Source of the DNA: a phage
DNA length: 64,000 nucleotides
Sequence record: PZ445440.1
Strand: one strand, 5' to 3'
In this document: in pieces, positions 3,282-63,964 of the stretch
How the letters are laid out: the number at the start of each line of letters is the position of its first letter
How positions within the stretch are numbered: position 1 is the stretch's first letter
Notes under the pieces: generated by a model
The model's database searches: none
Seen by the model: only the letters and a program-made list of their open reading frames with translations
Told to the model about the DNA's origin: nothing
Position numbers and translations under genes: made by a program

Positions 3282-3839
3282 TTAAAGATGAAGATACCAC
3301 CCGTTGTAGTTGCTCTTGCGGACGATTTTCTTTAGGTCTTCATGGTCTCCCACGAACTTTATAGAATAAGAGAAGACGTCAGGTGAGGTTTCTTTGACAT
3401 CTAATATAATAATGCAATCTGCGACTCGATGATTCAAGAAGGGCCCTATATTGATTCCATTACCACCTGGGTAATCACCACTGTATCCTGTGGTAACCGA
3501 AATCCATTTAGAATCTATCTGGTGCGTCTTGACTTCTACACGAATTCCACAATACTTGGGATGGGCTAACACGTCCCATGCATACGTGTACGGGTCTTCT
3601 ACATCTTCAATACCTTTATTAACATATCCGTCTAGCCAATTTGCTACTACATACTCTGCAAAGACCGCAACCTTACAACGTCGAACAACGCCTTCTTTTA
3701 TTTGTCCTGGATCTTGTTTCAACGAGTACCGAGCAGTATCAGCGATCTTAACCTTCATTTCGCTAGTCAAAAACTCATTCGACAGGATAAATGTCGGAAG
3801 ACTCTTCAGCCTCAACAACCCCAAGTTCGTCTTTACCAT
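3282..3839 (-). CDS. denB: putative endonuclease IV (DenB-like) by position and size; start placed at internal Met with GAGG SD
   Basis: 185 aa from MVKTNLG..., same length as T4 DenB as I recall; immediately downstream of rIIB as in T4; sequence identity not verified. Confidence 0.45.
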   Translation of the reverse strand: MVKTNLGLLRLKSLPTFILSNEFLTSEMKVKIADTARYSLKQDPGQIKEGVVRRCKVAVFAEYVVANWLDGYVNKGIEDVEDPYTYAWDVLAHPKYCGIRVEVKTHQIDSKWISVTTGYSGDYPGGNGINIGPFLNHRVADCIIILDVKETSPDVFSYSIKFVGDHEDLKKIVRKSNYNGWYLHL

Positions 3840-4062
3840 AGATACCTCTGATGTGTAGTTCGCCAAAATAAATGCGGTCTCCTTCTTCAAGATATTCTGC
3901 ATCTACCGGTGGGATTTCAATAACAACTTCGTCGCATTCTAACCAGCCGTAGTGTGCATCGCCAGGATGTTTTACCAATTTAGCACAATAAACTGATTTA
4001 CACTTATGGTGACCACGAAGATTAGCAATTTTGGATTCTGATACGTCAAATGGATGAATCAT
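3775..4062 (-). CDS. hypothetical protein (95 aa); doubtful because it overlaps the denB-like start by 65 nt
   Basis: ORF following the rIIB terminator; track ORF N-terminus (4063-4101) is the terminator hairpin, so start moved to ATG at 4062. Confidence 0.3.
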   Translation of the reverse strand: MIHPFDVSESKIANLRGHHKCKSVYCAKLVKHPGDAHYGWLECDEVVIEIPPVDAEYLEEGDRIYFGELHIRGIYGKDELGVVEAEESSDIYPVE

Positions 4063-4072
4063 AATTACCCCT

Positions 4073-4099
4073 AAAGAAAAAAAGGGGACCGAAGTCCCC
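4073..4099 (-). terminator. intrinsic terminator after rIIB (GGGGAC-UUCG-GUCCCC + U-tract)
   Basis: Plus strand aaagaaaaaaa-ggggac-cgaa-gtcccc; on minus-strand RNA a UUCG-tetraloop hairpin followed by U7. Confidence 0.65.
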
Positions 4100-4104
4100 A
4101 ATTA

Positions 4105-5040
4105 TTATTCTGCAAATAATTCAGTAACGTCTGAAATTACTTCATAACGACAAGTACGCATCTTAGCATCACCATAGTCAACCGGGATGGATACAACATC
4201 ACGTGGATGAACTTTAACTTTCACAACTTTATCTGAGCTTGAACCAAAGTGGCGAATATAAGATTTAGCACAAACGTGGAGACCGCGAGAACAGGTTTGA
4301 GTATCATCGTCGTTAACTCGAGTACGAGGCATTGAAACAACTTTACCTGGGGAGTTATCAAATGTACCACTATAGCAGTCTAAATAGTCCTTACGAACTA
4401 CTTTCCATGCATAGAAATGTCCGTCTTCAGTGATTTCAATATCATTTGCAACCAAGAAGTCGAATAAACGTTGTACAGCTTTTTCGCTCGGGTTTTCTAA
4501 CAGGTTTTCAAGGAACGGCAGATAGAATTTAAAGTCTTCACCTTTTTCCATGGAATCAATAATACGGTTAACCAGTCCTGAACGAATCTCTATACCTTGA
4601 TAAAATAAACTACCACCTTCAATAGTAACATTACCATCAACAAACTTAGTAATAGCTTTCTTGACGTTAATAAGTTCGACAGCTTTACTAAGGTTTCCTG
4701 CGACCAGATTAGCTTTAATTTCTTCAAAATTTGCATGACTTGATGGGGTCGCATTGTATGCTACGCGTCCTTCAATAATTGAAATAAATTTAGATGACGC
4801 GTTCCATACGATTTCAGGACGGTGTCCGCCGATAATAGGTTCATCATTTTCTGGGATCTGTTCTTCGTCTTCAAATTCAGCTGCTTTCTCTTCAGCTTTA
4901 AAATTCTTAACAATCTTACGAAGAGTATCTGTTGAAATGTCGAAGTAATCGGCAATTTCTTTACGAGTCCATTTGCCTGATTCAACCAGGCCGTAAGCTT
5001 CTAACTGTTCTTCTTGGGACAAGCATTTAATATTGTACAT
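4105..5040 (-). CDS. rIIB: rIIB membrane-associated protein
   Basis: 311 aa (T4 rIIB 312 aa as I recall); adjacent to rIIA; synteny. Confidence 0.85.
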   Translation of the reverse strand: MYNIKCLSQEEQLEAYGLVESGKWTRKEIADYFDISTDTLRKIVKNFKAEEKAAEFEDEEQIPENDEPIIGGHRPEIVWNASSKFISIIEGRVAYNATPSSHANFEEIKANLVAGNLSKAVELINVKKAITKFVDGNVTIEGGSLFYQGIEIRSGLVNRIIDSMEKGEDFKFYLPFLENLLENPSEKAVQRLFDFLVANDIEITEDGHFYAWKVVRKDYLDCYSGTFDNSPGKVVSMPRTRVNDDDTQTCSRGLHVCAKSYIRHFGSSSDKVVKVKVHPRDVVSIPVDYGDAKMRTCRYEVISDVTELFAE

Positions 5041-17207: not shown

Positions 17208-17816
17208 TCAGTAACTGACAATAGACAGATTCCAGATTGTATAACTTCCATCCTGAATAATAGAATCTACACGCAGTGTAGTCCCTATAGGGAGCATAAA
17301 TTCACATTCGTCAGATATAAGTCTAGCATTAGACCGTCTTGTCGCTTCAGGGAAAGCTCCATTGAACTCACAAGATGGCGCAGCCAGAATCATGTTAAGC
17401 ATATGTTCACGGAAGTTGAAAGCAAATGGTGCATCTTTGATGCAGAACATATTAAATGTTCCGTAAAAATTATACGAAGCAAAGTTACGTGCTACACCGA
17501 ACACTGGACTGAAGCTCATTACTCTGTCAAATTTAATAATACTACCAATGCCTTTATCATCGAGTGTGGCCATAGTTTTCTTAGAGATTCCACGATACAT
17601 TGTCTCAGGAACAGAAGACGTCCAATTTCTACGAACGATTGAACTTAAATCTTGTTGGATGCTATCAGGCTTGTTTTCCATACACTGCCACAGTACACTT
17701 TGTTCAATGTCGCTGAATTGCTCATCGATTTTGTACTGAAGCATATCTTGATAATCTGGACATTGGGCACGACGAACCATTTCTTCAATTTCACACTCGT
17801 TATACGGCATAAACAT
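17208..17816 (-). CDS. modA: ADP-ribosyltransferase ModA-like
   Basis: 202 aa; motif LW.C...TSSVPETMYRG shared with adjacent paralog; T4 modA/modB synteny. Confidence 0.7.
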   Translation of the reverse strand: MFMPYNECEIEEMVRRAQCPDYQDMLQYKIDEQFSDIEQSVLWQCMENKPDSIQQDLSSIVRRNWTSSVPETMYRGISKKTMATLDDKGIGSIIKFDRVMSFSPVFGVARNFASYNFYGTFNMFCIKDAPFAFNFREHMLNMILAAPSCEFNGAFPEATRRSNARLISDECEFMLPIGTTLRVDSIIQDGSYTIWNLSIVSY

Positions 17817-17873
17817 TTAGGTTTCTCCTGTGGTTGATAAAGGTATAGTATCATCATCGGAAGAGTTTGTACA

Positions 17874-18455
17874 CTAAAAATTCAACATTTTCAAATGAAT
17901 GATTTTGTATAATCGAGATAAAGGGTCATATTCTAAGTCTTCAATTTCCACAATCTCAAATCTAGAGATACCTGAGACCATGTACTCTTGTTCAGATTCA
18001 ATCATATCTAGGACGTCAACACGCGTTTCTTCCATAACATGCTTAGGGTTCTTTCCGGCGAGTACAATGTTAACCATGTTTTGGTAGTAATCAAAAATGA
18101 ATGGAGCATTCCTGAGACTAAGAATAGTGTACGTCTGATATTCCCATCTCCCAGAGAATTGACGAGCTGTACTGAAATCAGTTGTGAACGATGTTACTCG
18201 TCCAGGAGACCAATGGCATCCAACAGAAAGAAGGGAAAGACGTTCTACTTCTTCTGGAGTTACACCACGGTAGAGTTCTACTGGTACTGTAGAAGTCATA
18301 TGCTTACGAACAAGATGGTCTAATTCATAGTGGAAATCCGGGTCTTCCTTAGAATCGGTGCAAGCCCAGAGAATGTTTTGTTCTTGGCGGGTGAATTTGC
18401 TATCAATCAGATTTGTTAGGTATTCGCGTTCTTGAAGTTCAGATTGACATGTCAT
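17874..18455 (-). CDS. modB: ADP-ribosyltransferase ModB-like
   Basis: 193 aa; paralog of the preceding gene (ILWACT...TSTVPVELYRG). Confidence 0.7.
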   Translation of the reverse strand: MTCQSELQEREYLTNLIDSKFTRQEQNILWACTDSKEDPDFHYELDHLVRKHMTSTVPVELYRGVTPEEVERLSLLSVGCHWSPGRVTSFTTDFSTARQFSGRWEYQTYTILSLRNAPFIFDYYQNMVNIVLAGKNPKHVMEETRVDVLDMIESEQEYMVSGISRFEIVEIEDLEYDPLSRLYKIIHLKMLNF

Positions 18456-20308: not shown

Positions 20309-20316
20309 TATTTATA
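20309..20316 (-). promoter_or_regulatory. T4 late promoter TATAAATA (gp55-dependent) for soc
   Basis: Plus tatttata is an exact TATAAATA on the minus strand, ~35 nt upstream of the soc ATG. Confidence 0.65.
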
Positions 20317-20322
20317 ACTTAA

Positions 20323-20844
20323 TTAGTAACCATTATCCTGACGTTCAAAGTTGTGTTGGTTTTTCAGATAATACAGTTTGAAGATTTCTTCAGCAGAAAG
20401 TCCTAGACCTTGGAACATATTCAGAACAAAGTGGAGGATATCAATCATCTCGAATTTAATTTCAAGCTGGTCTTCAGGAGACAGTTCATCGATACGACGA
20501 TTTCGATATTCAGCATGTTGTGCTTTCCAAGGCTTCCATACAGAGCTAGCGGCTTTTTCACCATTGCTCATACCGCCGAGTGAAGTCAGCAGTTCACGGA
20601 ATTCATCATCAATATAATCTTTCTGATTACGCAGCCAATCAACAACATCACCAGCAGTAGCCAATTCATCAGGATGTTTGTTATGTTCAGGCTTGTCATT
20701 TGCCAGACGAACCTGTAAAGATTTCTGCATATCAAGCATTACCTGCAGTGGGTCTTTATCTTCGTGAATCAGAGCATTAAAATAAGCTTCTTCTGCTTTA
20801 TCAACACCAGAAATAAGTTGTGAACATTCGTTAAAGTGTGCCAT
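20323..20844 (-). CDS. 56: dCTP pyrophosphatase gp56 (MazG-like)
   Basis: 173 aa from MAHFNE... with AAGGA SD (T4 gp56 about 171 aa as I recall); synteny between soc and gene 61. Confidence 0.75.
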   Translation of the reverse strand: MAHFNECSQLISGVDKAEEAYFNALIHEDKDPLQVMLDMQKSLQVRLANDKPEHNKHPDELATAGDVVDWLRNQKDYIDDEFRELLTSLGGMSNGEKAASSVWKPWKAQHAEYRNRRIDELSPEDQLEIKFEMIDILHFVLNMFQGLGLSAEEIFKLYYLKNQHNFERQDNGY

Positions 20845-20933
20845 TATTTTTCCTTTCAATTCAGTATAAGAGAGTTTAATTCTAACATTAATTTTATAAA
20901 GCGTAATAAATAATAGGTAACTAAGGAGATATT

Positions 20934-21131
20934 ATGTTTAAACTTCCATCGTTAATCAACGCTATTAAAGGCAATAAAAAGAAAACTGCTATCGCTGCAA
21001 TAGTTGTAGGTGGCATTATTTCATGGAACTTCGGGATTGCACCATTGTTAGTTGCCCATGGTATTATAGTTCCTTCTGTTCCGTTGGATACTGTGGTTGA
21101 TTTGGCCTTTGCTATTATAGGGCTTGTTTAA
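20934..21131 (+). CDS. small membrane protein (65 aa) on the plus strand
   Basis: Fits exactly the gap between gene 56 start and gene 61 stop; strong SD AAGGAG 6 nt upstream of ATG; hydrophobic (IAAIVVGGIISW...AFAIIGLV). Confidence 0.6.
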   Translation: MFKLPSLINAIKGNKKKTAIAAIVVGGIISWNFGIAPLLVAHGIIVPSVPLDTVVDLAFAIIGLV

Positions 21132-22150
21132 ATCTTCGAATAACGAGATAATCTCATTTTAGCATGCAACCCACTTGAAATATTCTGTTTCATATATTCT
21201 AAAATTTCTTGTGGTGTTGCATTTTCTTTCATTACCATATCATTCACATCCTTTGAACTCCATGGAGCTCTATCCCAGAACATAACACGTTCGCCTGCAT
21301 CTACTAATCGCTTCATACGAGCTATAGTATCCGGATGCCTAGGTTCATTATCCATCACCCATACCCGACGTTCTTTAAATGGTACCACATCTAAATCTAT
21401 TGAGCCGCCTGTAATAGCGATTGCATTGGGTATGAATAAACTATCAATAGGGCCTTCCATTACCCAGACGTCTCCTTCCTTAACACGTTCAACACCGTAA
21501 ATTTTTGTTGCCGACTCAAACGCTTTAATAGTGATATATTTCTGAGGAGCATCTTTACGAAGTGCACGTCCTTGGAATGACTCGGCCTTACCATCTTTAT
21601 TAAAAATAGGAATCACTAAACGTGGTTCGGGAATCTCTTTCTTATACGTACCAGGTTGAATCTTGTTGACCAATTTAGGCCATTCTAATGTGAACCATAG
21701 TCTATTCCATGATTCTTTAGGAATGCATCTAGACTTAACATATTTCACAATAGGATGCTCTTCAGGCAGCTTGTCCAGACGAGAACAAGACGGCAAAGAA
21801 TTTATAGTCTTTTTCTCCGGTTCTGGTTTGTGTTCAGGAACCTTTTCAATCTTTGGTTCCATTCTAGCTTTTTCTTTACGAACTTCCATTAGATACTCGC
21901 GATAAAGCTCTTCATCATACTCTTTTAAGTATCCGGAAATTGTATTATGGTATTGACAGTTATAGCAATGTACATTACCAGGAGTACCGCCATAATACCA
22001 TCCGCGAGCTTTCATTGCATCTGTCTGGGAGTCGCCACAAACCGGACATCGAAATGTTAATTTAAATGTGCTTGAATTATTGATTTGTCTAAAACGAGGT
22101 AGGTGAGAAAACGCACGATAAGCAAATTCATTATCTATCCATTCAGCCAT
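21128..22150 (-). CDS. 61: DNA primase gp61
   Basis: 340 aa (T4 gp61 342 aa as I recall); N-terminal zinc ribbon CPVCGDS...CYNC; synteny. Confidence 0.9.
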   Translation of the reverse strand: MAEWIDNEFAYRAFSHLPRFRQINNSSTFKLTFRCPVCGDSQTDAMKARGWYYGGTPGNVHCYNCQYHNTISGYLKEYDEELYREYLMEVRKEKARMEPKIEKVPEHKPEPEKKTINSLPSCSRLDKLPEEHPIVKYVKSRCIPKESWNRLWFTLEWPKLVNKIQPGTYKKEIPEPRLVIPIFNKDGKAESFQGRALRKDAPQKYITIKAFESATKIYGVERVKEGDVWVMEGPIDSLFIPNAIAITGGSIDLDVVPFKERRVWVMDNEPRHPDTIARMKRLVDAGERVMFWDRAPWSSKDVNDMVMKENATPQEILEYMKQNISSGLHAKMRLSRYSKI

Positions 22151-52388: not shown

Positions 52389-52423
52389 GATAAACCCTTA
52401 CCTTAAATAGATAAGGGTATTTA

Positions 52424-52849
52424 TTAACTTAAACGTCTTTCTAAATATTCAATGTATTCCGCTGCGGCTTGCATCAGATTACCTTCATAACCATCATTAT
52501 TTTCTTGACCGGCTAATTTAGCTAATGCATAAGAAATTCGTTCACCTTCGAATTCGCCAAGTTTACTACCTAGCACATCCGCAATATCAGCCGAATCAAT
52601 TTCTTCGAGTTCATCTATTGAATGAGATTCCCAGAAGCACCAAAGAGAAGTATCACGGTCATAGATGCAAAGTTTCTCACCTGTGTTCAACATCACTTCG
52701 TTAATGCCATGGTCGCCATAACCATCTTCGGTAGTAGTACCAATTACCTTGATGATTGTTCCTTTCTTTAATTCAGGAAACTTGACTTGTAGTTCTTCAT
52801 CTTCTTTAACAATCTTGAACCATTTACCGCGAGTTTCAGAAATATTCAT
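52424..52849 (-). CDS. pin: Pin-like protein by position (start uncertain)
   Basis: Follows gene 49 as T4 pin does; 141 aa from the internal ATG MNISETRG; identity not verified. Confidence 0.4.
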   Translation of the reverse strand: MNISETRGKWFKIVKEDEELQVKFPELKKGTIIKVIGTTTEDGYGDHGINEVMLNTGEKLCIYDRDTSLWCFWESHSIDELEEIDSADIADVLGSKLGEFEGERISYALAKLAGQENNDGYEGNLMQAAAEYIEYLERRLS

Positions 52850-63142: not shown

Positions 63143-63355
63143 TTAATTTTGGCCAGTATTTATTTTTCGCCTTTGGACGGCATTAACATCTGCGAGGTAT
63201 TTTTCCAGCTTGCGCTTGCGTGTATAATCAGCTTTAGAACCAGTTTGACGGATATCCTCGTTTAAATGAGAAATAGAATGTCCTAATTCTCTTCGGATTT
63301 CATCCAATTGGGTTACAGTAAGATTACGAAGTTGTCTTTCGTTTAATTGCTGCAT
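63143..63355 (-). CDS. hypothetical protein (70 aa)
   Basis: ORF in gene array. Confidence 0.5.
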
Positions 63356-63382
63356 ATATACCTCTTGGTTAGATATTAGTAT

Positions 63383-63964
63383 TTATAACAACCCTGTCAA
63401 ATCGTTCCAATGCTTCCGGCATAATGACACATATCTATCGGTATCACCAATTTCAATTTGACTGCCATCTGTAATTGGAAGTCCGTCTTCCGTGACTCTA
63501 GCTACCATTGTGGCCTTTTTACCACAATGACAGACACCTTTAAGTTCAACAAGCTTATCGGCAATAGCCATTAATGCTTGAGAACCTTCAAATAGATTAC
63601 CTTTAAAATCTGTTCGTAGTCCGTATGCCATTACCGGCACATTGTATACGTCAACAATACGACTAAGTTGATACACCTTTTCAGTAGTTAAGAACTGAGC
63701 TTCGTCAACAAATACACAGTGAATATCCTTTTGTGCTGCAGCCCATTTATAGAATTCAAAGATATCCATGTCTTTTGTAATTATATTGGCGTCCTGACGA
63801 ATACCAATACGAGAGACTATTTCACCTTTTGAATCACGAGTATCAATAGCCGGTTTAAGAACTAATACACCCATGCCACGTTCTTTATAGTTATGTGCGG
63901 CAGTAAGTAATGAAGCAGACTTACCAGCGTTCATAGCGGCATATGTAAAAATTAAACTAGCCAT
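63383..63964 (-). CDS. tk: thymidine kinase
   Basis: 193 aa; P-loop AMNAGKSAS, Zn ribbon CHCGKKA...C; matches T4 Tk length. Confidence 0.9.
   Translation of the reverse strand: MASLIFTYAAMNAGKSASLLTAAHNYKERGMGVLVLKPAIDTRDSKGEIVSRIGIRQDANIITKDMDIFEFYKWAAAQKDIHCVFVDEAQFLTTEKVYQLSRIVDVYNVPVMAYGLRTDFKGNLFEGSQALMAIADKLVELKGVCHCGKKATMVARVTEDGLPITDGSQIEIGDTDRYVSLCRKHWNDLTGLL

What the first reader, a model, noticed from the sequence alone, without database searches (positions are those of the whole stretch)
20934..21131. Lone plus-strand gene for a small membrane protein inside the minus-strand early array
A 65-aa hydrophobic ORF with a consensus SD (AAGGAG) fills the gap between gene 56 and gene 61 on the opposite strand. 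A late-promoter-like TAATAAATA lies ~22 nt upstream. Opposite-strand small membrane proteins in T-even phages are often lysis, immunity or superinfection-exclusion factors.
Basis: seen in the sequence. Interest (0 to 1): 0.55.

Follow-up and report, generated by a model that had tools for sequence, protein, structure and literature searches.

The report
Overlooked late membrane micro-protein gene of T-even phages
The 65-codon plus-strand ORF is a real, conserved gene of T4-like phages for a tiny inner-membrane protein. It is almost certainly switched on late in infection. It is missing from the T4 reference annotation, and its function is still unknown.

Summary
The window is Escherichia phage ChristianSchoenbein (Bas46, Mosigvirus). 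The ORF at 20934-21131 (+) exists as described and is the only plus-strand CDS among 117 annotated genes in the window.

- **Real gene:** only this frame is open in 13 lineages from 8+ Tevenvirinae genera. Within-genus dN/dS is 0.10-0.36. M1, W31, N32 and P37 are invariant.
- **Conserved position:** it always sits convergent with primase gene 61.
- **T4:** T4 has a 66-aa orthologue at NC_000866.4 17738-17938 (+). It is unannotated there and has no NCBI protein accession.
- **Late promoter:** this reading is strongly supported. The heptamer ATAAATA occurs 5 times in 64 kb, against about 28 expected, and only once on the plus strand. All five copies lie 21-31 nt before an ATG: soc, gene 49, rI.-1, rI and this ORF. 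The motif and a strong SD are kept across genera.
- **Protein:** it looks like a single-pass, N-in/C-out membrane micro-protein whose conserved core lies at the periplasmic face.
- **Function:** it has no homologue of known function and fails the holin, RI and Imm membership tests. A role in lysis, immunity or exclusion remains an untested guess.

The result is moderately interesting. The family is already annotated as hypothetical (RB69ORF029w, phrog_2024).

The parts
20905..20912 (+). Predicted gp55-dependent late promoter -10 element, AATAAATA (T4 consensus TATAAATA with A at -13)
   Evidence: Sequence. ATAAATA occurs 5 times in the window against 27.8+-5.0 expected, and all five copies precede ATGs of soc, gene 49, rI.-1, rI and this ORF. 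It is the single plus-strand copy against 11-19 expected under order-1/3 Markov models. NATAAATA is kept 14-22 nt before the ATG in 7 of 8 genera, and is a perfect TATAAATA in Entb_45 and F48. A(-13) is the commonest T4 variant (PMC2988020; PMC1524935).
20917..20919 (+). Inferred transcription start (about 6 nt after the -10 element), giving a 5' leader of about 16 nt
   Evidence: Inference from the -13..-6 position rule for T4 late promoters (PMC1524935). Not measured.
20923..20928 (+). Shine-Dalgarno AAGGAG, 5-nt spacer to the ATG
   Evidence: A strong (A)GGAGG is kept in all 13 lineages. Only 3 of 61 plus-strand ORFs of at least 50 aa have an SD-like motif.
20934..21131 (+). CDS, 65 aa plus TAA; member of phrog_2024 / RB69ORF029w family
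   Evidence: dN/dS is 0.10-0.36 and only this frame is open in all 13 lineages. Synonymous excess p=9e-7.
20985..21056 (+). Codons 18-41: the single predicted transmembrane helix, preceded by the basic N-terminal segment (K12, K15-K17)
   Evidence: AlphaFold helix 15-41, pLDDT 87-93 over residues 21-50. Hydropathy and positive-inside count: N-flank K+R 4-7, C-flank 0-1 in 7 subtypes. TM 21-41 predicted for RB69ORF029w in Nolan 2006, Additional File 2.
21024..21089 (+). Codons 31-52: conserved core W31-N32-x4-P37-x-A-x-[ATS]-x-G43-x2-L-P47-x-V-x2-[DE]52, covering the outer half of the TM helix and the periplasmic juxtamembrane stretch
   Evidence: Per-column conservation of alignment A2, 33 sequences.
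21128..21131 (.). 4-nt overlap of the convergent stop codons of this ORF (+) and primase gene 61 (-)
   Evidence: The same tail-to-tail overlap is seen in T4, HMD-9, RB69, Entb_45, UTK0003 and TH41 copy B.

Best explanation
This is a genuine late gene of T-even phages. The explanation has four steps.

1. **Transcription (inferred from sequence, strongly).** After replication begins, gp55-RNA polymerase starts at the variant late promoter AATAAATA (20905-20912). It makes a short-leader plus-strand mRNA, the only plus-strand message in this 64-kb early region.
2. **Translation and selection.** Protein-level selection is shown. Translation itself is inferred from the strong AAGGAG SD, which should drive a 65-aa product.
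3. **Membrane insertion (predicted).** The basic N-terminus stays in the cytoplasm. Residues about 18-41 span the inner membrane. The last roughly 24 residues are an extended Pro-rich stretch and a short amphipathic helix carrying acidic residues. They lie at or in the periplasmic leaflet.
4. **Function (inferred, weak).**
   - Conservation is concentrated in the outer half of the helix and the juxtamembrane stretch (invariant Trp-Asn, Pro37, Gly43, Pro47), not in the cytoplasmic tail.
   - I therefore propose that the protein acts by binding another envelope protein within or at the periplasmic face of the inner membrane.
   - My best single guess is that it is an accessory modulator of end-of-infection envelope events such as lysis timing or lysis inhibition, working with holin T, antiholin RI or the spanins. 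It is not itself a holin.

Probabilities:
- real translated gene: about 0.9
- late-only expression: about 0.85
- N-in/C-out membrane protein: about 0.7
- lysis-related role: about 0.25
For: **Gene reality**
- phrog_2024 match, E=1.9e-27.
- 693-943 phage records carry a homologue, nearly always abutting primase. 967 records have a primase at least 60% identical.
- A syntenic plus-strand ORF is found in Mosig-, Tequatro-, Gapriver-, Dhaka-, Marfa-, Jiaoda-, Kanagawa- and Gelderlandvirus.
- dN/dS is 0.10-0.36 and only this frame is open in all 13 lineages. Synonymous excess is p=9e-7.
- Invariant M1, W31, N32, P37; near-invariant G43, P47, G63.

**Late promoter**
- ATAAATA occurs 5 times against 27.8+-5.0 expected, and every one of 100 shuffles had more.
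- It is the rarest of the 21 heptamers of composition A5T2, and occurs once on the plus strand against 11-19 expected under order-1 and order-3 models.
- All five copies lie 21-31 nt before the ATGs of soc, gene 49, rI.-1, rI and this ORF.
- The motif is conserved across genera while the flanking sequence is not.
- The literature reports the A(-13) variant and late transcripts of either polarity.
- The scan found no consensus-grade sigma-70 promoter on the plus strand upstream, only one 9/12 match about 560 nt away inside gene 56.

**Topology**
- AlphaFold: mean pLDDT 79, helix 15-41, extended 42-51, helix 52-62.
- Charge bias and hydropathy agree in 7 subtypes.
- TM 21-41 and SignalP-negative for the RB69 orthologue.
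Against: - No transcript, ribosome or peptide evidence was accessible. The T4 dRNA-seq TSS table that could settle this is not held.
- Nolan et al. 2006 did not call a late promoter here in RB69.
- T4's own motif is GATAAATA and Gelderlandvirus has TATTAAATA. Both are weaker matches.
- Hydropathy scales and AlphaFold on a 65-aa helix are crude. The hydrophobic segment is rich in Ala, Gly and Ser and ends in P-x-A-x-A, so cleavage or release from the membrane is possible.
- Nothing links the protein to lysis. There is no similarity to RI, RI.-1 or Imm, no neighbouring lysis gene, and the 'Holin' label on one homologue is unreviewed.
- Two records carry frameshifted copies, so the gene may be dispensable in the laboratory.
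Confidence: 0.45

Rival explanations
1. The hydrophobic segment is a long Sec signal peptide, or an RI-like signal-anchor-release domain. Signal peptidase would cut after residue 41 (P37-x-A39-x-A41 | H-G), or the domain would leave the bilayer. Either route puts a 24-aa hydrophobic, acidic peptide (HGIIVPSVPLDTVVDLAFAIIGLV) into the periplasm late in infection.
For: - The layout is n-region (K/R-rich), h-region, then Pro at -5.
- Residue -3 is Ala in 28 of 33 sequences. Residue -1 is Ala, Thr or Ser in 32 of 33.
- The segment is rich in Ala, Gly, Ser and Thr, with a marginal insertion energy in several subtypes (+0.8 to +3.5 kcal/mol on a crude scale).
- T4 RI sets a precedent for a SAR domain in a late T4 protein (my own knowledge, not checked here).
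Against: - The h-region is about 19-24 residues and the n-region 17, both long for a cleaved signal.
- SignalP was negative and one TM was predicted for RB69ORF029w.
- Trp31-Asn32 inside the segment are invariant, which is unusual for a disposable signal peptide.
- Mosigviruses have Leu at -3, and Thr at -1 is a poor signal peptidase residue.
Confidence: 0.18
2. The important product is the RNA. A late plus-strand transcript runs antisense into primase gene 61 and shuts off or destabilises its mRNA by convergent transcription. Alternatively it primes late replication near oriA. On this reading the peptide is secondary.
For: - The stops are convergent and overlap by 4 nt, and no plus-strand intrinsic terminator is found within 5 kb.
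- Late T4 transcripts of either polarity, and sites where both strands are transcribed, are known.
- R-loops at late promoters have been suggested as cryptic origins, and oriA is more active late (PMC3016281).
- A hairpin lies 35-90 nt past the stop in Bas46 and T4.
Against: - Protein-level constraint is clear: dN/dS well below 1, invariant residues, a conserved SD and an open frame in 13 lineages.
- An RNA-only role would not preserve these.
- Covariation in the hairpin is weak, and the hairpin is absent in JS98.
Confidence: 0.1
3. It is a late-acting superinfection-exclusion or immunity factor that alters the inner-membrane injection site.
For: - It is a small inner-membrane protein with its conserved surface at the periplasmic face.
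- The exclusion genes sp and imm lie about 2-3 kb away in this phage.
Against: - sp and imm are early minus-strand genes. This gene can only be read from a late promoter.
- There is no similarity to Imm.
- Exclusion is needed from the first minutes of infection.
Confidence: 0.1
4. It is a holin or pinholin, as one homologue is labelled in UniProt/BFVD.
For: - It is small, membrane-spanning and late-expressed.
- There is a 'Holin' label on the vB_EcoM_OE5505 homologue.
Against: - There is no Pfam holin match at E<=10.
- The C-terminus is hydrophobic with no K/R, whereas holins carry a charged cytoplasmic C-tail.
- There is only one membrane-competent segment.
- T-even phages already have holin T, which is necessary for lysis (my own knowledge).
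- The label is automatic; all other sources say 'hypothetical'.
Confidence: 0.04
5. It is a membrane-bound helper of particle assembly (for example docking prohead initiation at the membrane) or a minor hydrophobic virion component.
For: - Late expression is shared with the structural genes.
- One record labels the neighbouring small ORF 'putative head morphogenesis protein'.
- Its tryptic map has only one detectable peptide, so it could have escaped virion proteomics.
Against: - The cytoplasmic N-terminus, where assembly takes place, is the least conserved part.
- No similarity to any structural or assembly protein was found.
- The label is unreviewed.
Confidence: 0.08
6. It is a chance ORF in an intergenic gap, not a gene.
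For: It is short, hydrophobic and AT-rich. It is not annotated in T4, JS98 or F48.
Against: Searches show a conserved frame, SD, promoter motif and residues across 8+ genera, with significant purifying selection.
Confidence: 0.02

Closest known systems
RB69ORF029w / RB32ORF030w / VR7ORF033w = PHROG phrog_2024 (hypothetical proteins of T-even-type phages)
   Same: Same family. RB69ORF029w differs from the window protein by one residue, and the window protein matches the full length of the PHROG profile at E=1.9e-27. The position and strand next to primase are the same.
   Different: Nothing differs; this is membership. The family has no assigned function and I found no paper naming it. What I add here:
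- the late-gene status
- the T4 orthologue
- the conserved motif
- the tandem paralogues
T4 RI antiholin (gene rI)
   Same: - It is a small envelope protein of T-evens encoded in the early region.
- In this window it is preceded by the same AATAAATA variant late promoter at similar spacing (26 nt against 21 nt).
- It has an N-terminal membrane-tethering segment and a periplasmic C-terminus.
   Different: - There is no sequence or profile similarity.
- RI has a periplasmic domain of about 70 residues that binds holin T (my own knowledge). This protein has only about 24 residues beyond the membrane.
- rI is on the minus strand and also lies within early transcription units.
soc and gene 49 of T4: late-promoter genes embedded in the early region
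   Same: Each has a late promoter core directly before the gene inside the early/middle gene array. soc is a recognised late gene lying within early/middle polycistronic transcripts (PMC2988022).
   Different: Those genes are co-oriented with the early genes and are also present on early read-through RNA. This gene is on the opposite strand, so it depends on its late promoter alone.
Holins (T4 T, class III; phage 21 pinholin S21 68)
   Same: They are small or membrane-embedded late proteins.
   Different: This protein gives no homology to any Pfam holin model, has no charged C-terminal tail and has one membrane-competent segment. T is about 218 aa with a large periplasmic domain (my own knowledge).
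T4 Imm and Sp (superinfection exclusion)
   Same: They are small envelope proteins, encoded within 3 kb in this phage.
   Different: They are early, minus-strand genes with no similarity to this protein. Imm has two TM segments (my own knowledge).

Membership tests
phrog_2024 / RB69ORF029w family | Significant full-length profile match | tested here: met
   E=1.9e-27, residues 1-65 on profile positions 1-65. The profile search returns 116 relatives, all 45-74 aa.
phrog_2024 / RB69ORF029w family | Conserved genomic slot: plus strand, tail-to-tail with primase gene 61, downstream of gene 56 | tested here: met
   The slot is absent in RB49 (Krischvirus), where genes 56 and 61 are 14 nt apart.
T4-type late gene (gp55-dependent) | TATAAATA-type element at -13..-6 with no -35 requirement | tested here: met
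   AATAAATA at 20905-20912. A(-13) occurs at 9 of 50 T4 sites, and A or T is common at that position in RB69-like phages. The heptamer is purged elsewhere in the window.
T4-type late gene (gp55-dependent) | Motif conserved in front of the orthologues | tested here: met
   NATAAATA lies 14-22 nt before the ATG in 7 of 8 genera and is a perfect TATAAATA in Entb_45 and F48. Gelderlandvirus has TATTAAATA.
T4-type late gene (gp55-dependent) | RNA 5' end appearing late and dependent on genes 55, 33 and 45 | not testable with these tools
   T4 dRNA-seq data exist (150 TSS, 22 antisense) but the TSS table is not held.
Holin | Homology to a known holin family | tested here: not met
   No Pfam hit at E<=10 and no NCBIfam hit. 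Foldseek hits to 'holin' entries have E>3, apart from its own family member.
Holin | Charged, hydrophilic cytoplasmic C-terminal tail | tested here: not met
   The C-flank has 0-1 K/R and ends ...AFAIIGLV. The charge cluster is N-terminal.
Holin | Lethal hole formation and endolysin release | not testable with these tools
   Needs expression experiments.
RI-type antiholin | Sequence/profile similarity to RI, and a periplasmic globular domain | tested here: not met
   hhalign probability 0.5%. Only about 24 residues follow the TM segment.
Imm/Sp superinfection exclusion | Similarity to Imm; early expression | tested here: not met
   hhalign probability 0.1%. The gene is on the plus strand with only a late-type promoter, and no consensus-grade sigma-70 promoter was found upstream.
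Cleavable Sec signal peptide | n-h-c organisation with small residues at -3 and -1 | tested here: inconclusive
   The P37-x-A39-x-[ATS]41 pattern is present. However, the h-region is long and SignalP was negative for the RB69 orthologue. No signal-peptide predictor was available here.
Single-pass N-in/C-out inner-membrane protein | One hydrophobic helix and positive-inside charge bias | tested here: met
   These are predictions only, not experimental topology.

The most novel reading that the evidence does not exclude
T-even phages, T4 included, carry a universally conserved late gene missing from the T4 reference annotation. Its 65-aa product would be a missing player in end-of-infection envelope biology. 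One version is a transmembrane partner that tunes the holin T / antiholin RI lysis clock. A second is a processed form, cut at the conserved P-x-A-x-A|HG site, giving a secreted 24-aa hydrophobic acidic periplasmic peptide. The tandem A and B paralogues in some Gapriverviruses would then be interchangeable or hetero-oligomerising variants of that factor.
Probability: 0.2. Interest if true: 0.65.

Novelty: new member of a known kind. Interest (0 to 1): 0.4.

Why it matters
- **Gap in a model annotation.** T4 is one of the best-annotated genomes in biology. Even so, its reference record (NC_000866.4) and the protein databases lack this gene. About 940 related phage records carry a homologue, and selection has clearly maintained it.
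- **Biology.** If it is expressed late as predicted, it adds a membrane micro-protein to the small set of T-even late envelope proteins (T, RI, spanins). It also offers a new handle on lysis timing or other late envelope events.
- **Method.** The late-promoter heptamer is so strongly purged from the early region that every surviving copy marks a late gene. Other T4-like genomes could be scanned for late genes the same way.
- **Annotation.** The T4, JS98 and F48 records should gain this CDS. The Bas46 CDS start should move from the ATT to the ATG at window position 20934.

Tried and rejected
**Homology and fold searches (nothing found beyond the family)**
- Pfam, NCBIfam and a PDB sequence profile search (only E>0.1 hydrophobic noise).
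- Foldseek against BFVD and PDB (only its own family, the rest E>2).
- Exhaustive HMMER against 1.84 billion representatives. It found two real clusters, and two long proteins matched only through hydrophobic stretches. The family is confined to T-even-type phages.
- hhalign of the family profile against this phage's RI, RI.-1 and Imm (no similarity).

**Sequence collections**
- IMG/VR gave only two extra loci.

I repeated it with A2.

**Literature**
- Miller et al. 2003 (the T4 genome review with the late-promoter table) is not held.
- No paper names phrog_2024, RB69ORF029w, RB32ORF030w, VR7ORF033w, NP_861719, bas46_0126 or QXV76970.
- Searches for T4 Ribo-seq, TSS mapping or re-annotation found nothing on this ORF.
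- The T4 dRNA-seq preprint holds no TSS table in the stored supplement.
- One search failed on a term that was too short.

**Readings considered and dropped**
- Antisense open frame: the frame in phase with gene 61 stays open through the ORF in Mosigvirus and T4. It has stops in the other genera, and the protein has few Tyr, His or Gln codons. I judge it a compositional by-product.
- Hairpin as a conserved terminator: RNAalifold did not recover it and covariation is weak.
- Early or middle expression from the plus strand: there is no convincing sigma-70 site, and I saw no MotA-box core (TGCTT) in the 74 nt upstream.

Full report
**Identity of the window.**
A 1.9-kb query spanning the finding is 100% identical to Escherichia phage ChristianSchoenbein (Bas46, MZ501056.1; Tevenvirinae, Mosigvirus). 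Window position equals record position minus 64478. The ORF is annotated there as bas46_0126, 'hypothetical protein'.

**Checking the observation.**
- The ORF is as described: ATG at 20934, TAA at 21129-21131, 65 aa.
- AAGGAG lies at 20923-20928, 5 nt before the ATG.
- TAATAAATA lies at 20904-20912, ending 21 nt before the ATG.
- The flanking genes are dCTPase gene 56 (20323-20844, -) and primase gene 61 (21128-22150, -).
- The ORF and gene 61 end tail-to-tail with a 4-nt overlap.
- All 117 annotated CDS across the window are on the minus strand except this one.
- The GenBank CDS starts 3 nt early at an ATT. The ATG is the credible start, as in RB69.
- Of 61 plus-strand ATG-ORFs of at least 50 aa in the window, three have an SD-like motif. 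Only this one also has the late-promoter core.

**Is it a gene?**
Yes.
- It matches PHROG phrog_2024 end to end (E=1.9e-27, function unknown).
- tblastn finds it in 693 phage records, 686 of them at 80% coverage or better, and almost always abutting primase.
- A more divergent family member as query reaches 943 records. By comparison, 967 records have a primase at least 60% identical to this one.
- A syntenic plus-strand ORF of 62-74 aa between gene 56 and primase occurs in at least eight genera:
  - Mosigvirus
  - Tequatrovirus
  - Gaprivervirus
  - Dhakavirus (JS98, unannotated there)
  - Marfavirus (F48, unannotated there)
  - Jiaodavirus
  - Kanagawavirus
  - Gelderlandvirus
- In RB49 (Krischvirus) genes 56 and 61 are 14 nt apart and the ORF is absent.
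- An exhaustive HMMER scan of 1.84 billion representatives finds nothing outside the family. A profile search returns 116 relatives, all phage.
- Only this reading frame is open in all 13 lineages examined, and within-genus dN/dS is 0.10-0.36.
- Synonymous changes are in significant excess: p=9e-7 for three unsaturated pairs and 2e-14 with a fourth.
- M1, W31, N32 and P37 are invariant and G43, P47 and G63 nearly so, across 33 sequences down to about 15% identity.

**T4 itself.**
- NC_000866.4 has a 66-aa orthologue at 17738-17938 (+), in the 310-nt 'empty' gap between dam and gene 61. It has AGGAGG and GATAAATA at the same spacing.
- It is not annotated there. The exact T4 sequence has no NCBI or UniRef accession.
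- All named relatives are 'hypothetical protein'. A few carry stray automatic labels: 'Holin', 'DNA packaging ATPase', 'dCTP pyrophosphatase' and 'putative head morphogenesis protein'.

**Late promoter.**
- The T4 late promoter is TATAAATA at -13..-6. 32 of 50 T4 sites are perfect and nine have A at -13. Late transcripts run in either direction (PMC2988020).
- In RB69-like phages -13 is commonly A or T (PMC1524935).
- The window's element is AATAAATA.
- The key result is that the core ATAAATA occurs only 5 times on both strands of the 64-kb window, against 27.8+-5.0 in dinucleotide-preserving shuffles. All 100 shuffles had more.
- It is the rarest of the 21 heptamers of composition A5T2. It occurs once on the plus strand against 11-19 expected under order-1 and order-3 Markov models.
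- All five copies sit 21-31 nt before a start codon:

| Gene | Element |
|---|---|
| soc | TATAAATA |
| gene 49, endonuclease VII | AATAAATA |
| gene upstream of rI (rI.-1 position) | TATAAATA |
| rI | AATAAATA |
| this ORF | AATAAATA |

- soc is a recognised late gene embedded in early transcripts (PMC2988022). That genes 49 and rI have late promoters in T4 is my own recollection of the T4 literature and was not checked here.
- The region has therefore been cleared of this motif except where it is used.
- The motif is also kept before the orthologues while the surrounding intergenic sequence is not alignable. NATAAATA lies 14-22 nt before the ATG in seven genera. It is a perfect TATAAATA in Entb_45 and F48, and TATTAAATA in Gelderlandvirus.
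- No consensus-grade sigma-70 promoter precedes the ORF on the plus strand. Because early and middle transcription is entirely minus-strand, the gene should be late-only.
- Nolan et al. did not list a late promoter here for RB69, so this inference appears to be new.

**The protein.**
- AlphaFold with a 33-sequence alignment gives mean pLDDT 79, and 87-93 over residues 21-50. It predicts a short N-terminal helix (4-11), a long helix (15-41), an extended stretch (42-51) and a short helix (52-62).
- Seven subtypes each show one membrane-competent segment. K+R is 4-7 on the N side and 0-1 on the C side, so N-in/C-out is predicted. The last 19 residues are not TM-competent on a crude scale.
- Nolan et al. 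predicted TM 21-41 and no signal peptide for RB69ORF029w.
- Conservation is concentrated in W31-N32-[FLY]-x3-P37-x-A-x-[ATS]-[HQN]-G43-x2-L-P47-x-V-x2-[DE]52. That is the outer half of the helix plus the periplasmic juxtamembrane stretch. The cytoplasmic N-terminus is only compositionally conserved, as a basic segment.
- A membrane-embedded Asn and conserved Pro and Gly suggest a specific helix-helix or interfacial contact. This is inference.
- The P-x-A-x-A|HG pattern resembles a signal peptidase site, which gives the processed-peptide rival.
- Trypsin would leave only one detectable peptide. That could explain absence from proteomic data.

**Comparison with known families.**
- There are no Pfam, NCBIfam or PDB-sequence hits.
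- Foldseek finds nothing beyond its own family.
- It has no profile similarity to this phage's RI, RI.-1 or Imm.
- It fails the holin criteria that could be tested: no homology and no charged C-tail.
- It does not fit early exclusion factors.
- Its regulatory logic is closest to soc, gene 49 and rI, which are late promoters inside the early array. It differs in being on the opposite strand.

**Mechanism.**
- The well-supported part is gp55-dependent late transcription, SD-driven translation and insertion as a tiny single-pass inner-membrane protein.
- The function is a guess. Timing, location and the conserved periplasmic-face motif make an accessory role in late envelope events (lysis timing or LIN) my leading hypothesis, at about 0.25.
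- The rivals are:
  - a released periplasmic peptide
  - an antisense or replication role of the RNA
  - late exclusion
  - assembly help

**Side observations.**
- In Gaprivervirus TH41 the slot holds two tandem paralogues, a T4-type copy and a JS98-type copy 8 nt apart. In CJ20 the second copy is decaying.
- T4_ev240 and ERS-1 carry 1-nt indels in the ORF. These may be sequencing errors.
- A hairpin lies inside the 3' end of the primase gene (21164-21222). It is stable in Bas46 (z=-4.35) and T4 (z=-3.35). It is absent in JS98 and lacks convincing covariation.

**Verdict.**
The gene and late-promoter readings are supported. The functional reading is untested. The family is already annotated as hypothetical, so novelty is modest. 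The points of interest are the missing T4 annotation, the near-universal conservation in Tevenvirinae and the strong indirect evidence for late expression.

Noticed in passing
window 20309-20315(-), 20906-20912(+), 52418-52424(-), 63157-63163(-), 63380-63386(-): The late-promoter core ATAAATA is strongly purged from this 64-kb early region: 5 copies against about 28 expected. It is the rarest of the 21 A5T2 heptamers. Every surviving copy sits 21-31 nt before the start of soc, the ORF, gene 49, rI or the gene upstream of rI. The depletion itself marks late genes.
   Followed up: yes
L002 (NC_000866.4) 3739-3939 = T4 record 17738-17938 (+): T4's own 66-aa orthologue lies in the dam-61 gap and is not annotated in the reference record. 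The exact protein has no NCBI or UniRef accession. JS98 (L012:1965-2165) and F48 (L014:1980-2180) also lack the annotation.
   Followed up: yes
L004 (TH41) 2501-2698 and 2707-2907; L005 (CJ20) about 2707: Some Gapriverviruses carry two tandem paralogues in the slot, a T4/Mosig-type copy and a JS98/Marfa-type copy 8 nt apart, each with its own SD. In CJ20 the second copy has a stop at codon 2 and about 87 nt deleted. This suggests partly redundant subtypes with differential loss.
   Followed up: partly
window 21164-21222 (+), inside the 3' end of primase gene 61; T4 L002 about 3975-4027: A stable hairpin followed by a pyrimidine-rich run lies 35-90 nt past the ORF stop: -17.9 kcal/mol, z=-4.35 in Bas46; -21.2 kcal/mol, z=-3.35 in T4. 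It uses G/C-rich codons unusual for these genomes. JS98 does not fold it, the arms do not look complementary in RB49, and covariation is weak. It could be a 3' end of the late transcript or a primase mRNA element.
   Followed up: partly
L018 (T4_ev240) about 2455; L006 (ERS-1, UNVERIFIED) about 2640: Two records have 1-nt indels that frameshift the ORF, one of them in an A6 run. They may be sequencing errors, or a sign that the gene is dispensable in laboratory passage.
   Followed up: partly
window 20931-20933; record MZ501056.1 85409: The GenBank CDS bas46_0126 begins at an ATT, 3 nt upstream of the ATG. This is probably an annotation artefact.
   Followed up: yes
window 20934-21127, minus strand, frame of gene 61: The antisense frame in phase with gene 61 stays open through the whole ORF in Mosigviruses and T4, but has stops in the other genera. 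It is probably a by-product of the ORF's amino-acid composition, not a read-through extension.
   Followed up: partly
window 20959-20931 (-): A sigma-70-like site (TTGATT-17-CATAAT, 9/12) on the minus strand overlaps the ORF start. It could be a promoter for gene 56, divergent from and overlapping the late promoter region.
   Followed up: no
P0095 (OE5505), P0086 (SAKp28), P0112 (SEA1); H208 (phage BW-1): Family members carry contradictory automatic names: 'Holin', 'DNA packaging ATPase', 'dCTP pyrophosphatase' and 'putative head morphogenesis protein'. None is supported by the searches run here.
   Followed up: partly
L005 (CJ20) 3861-4274 (+): An annotated 137-aa plus-strand CDS (CJ20_018) sits just upstream of primase. 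Its low-complexity translation and lack of an SD suggest a spurious call.
   Followed up: no
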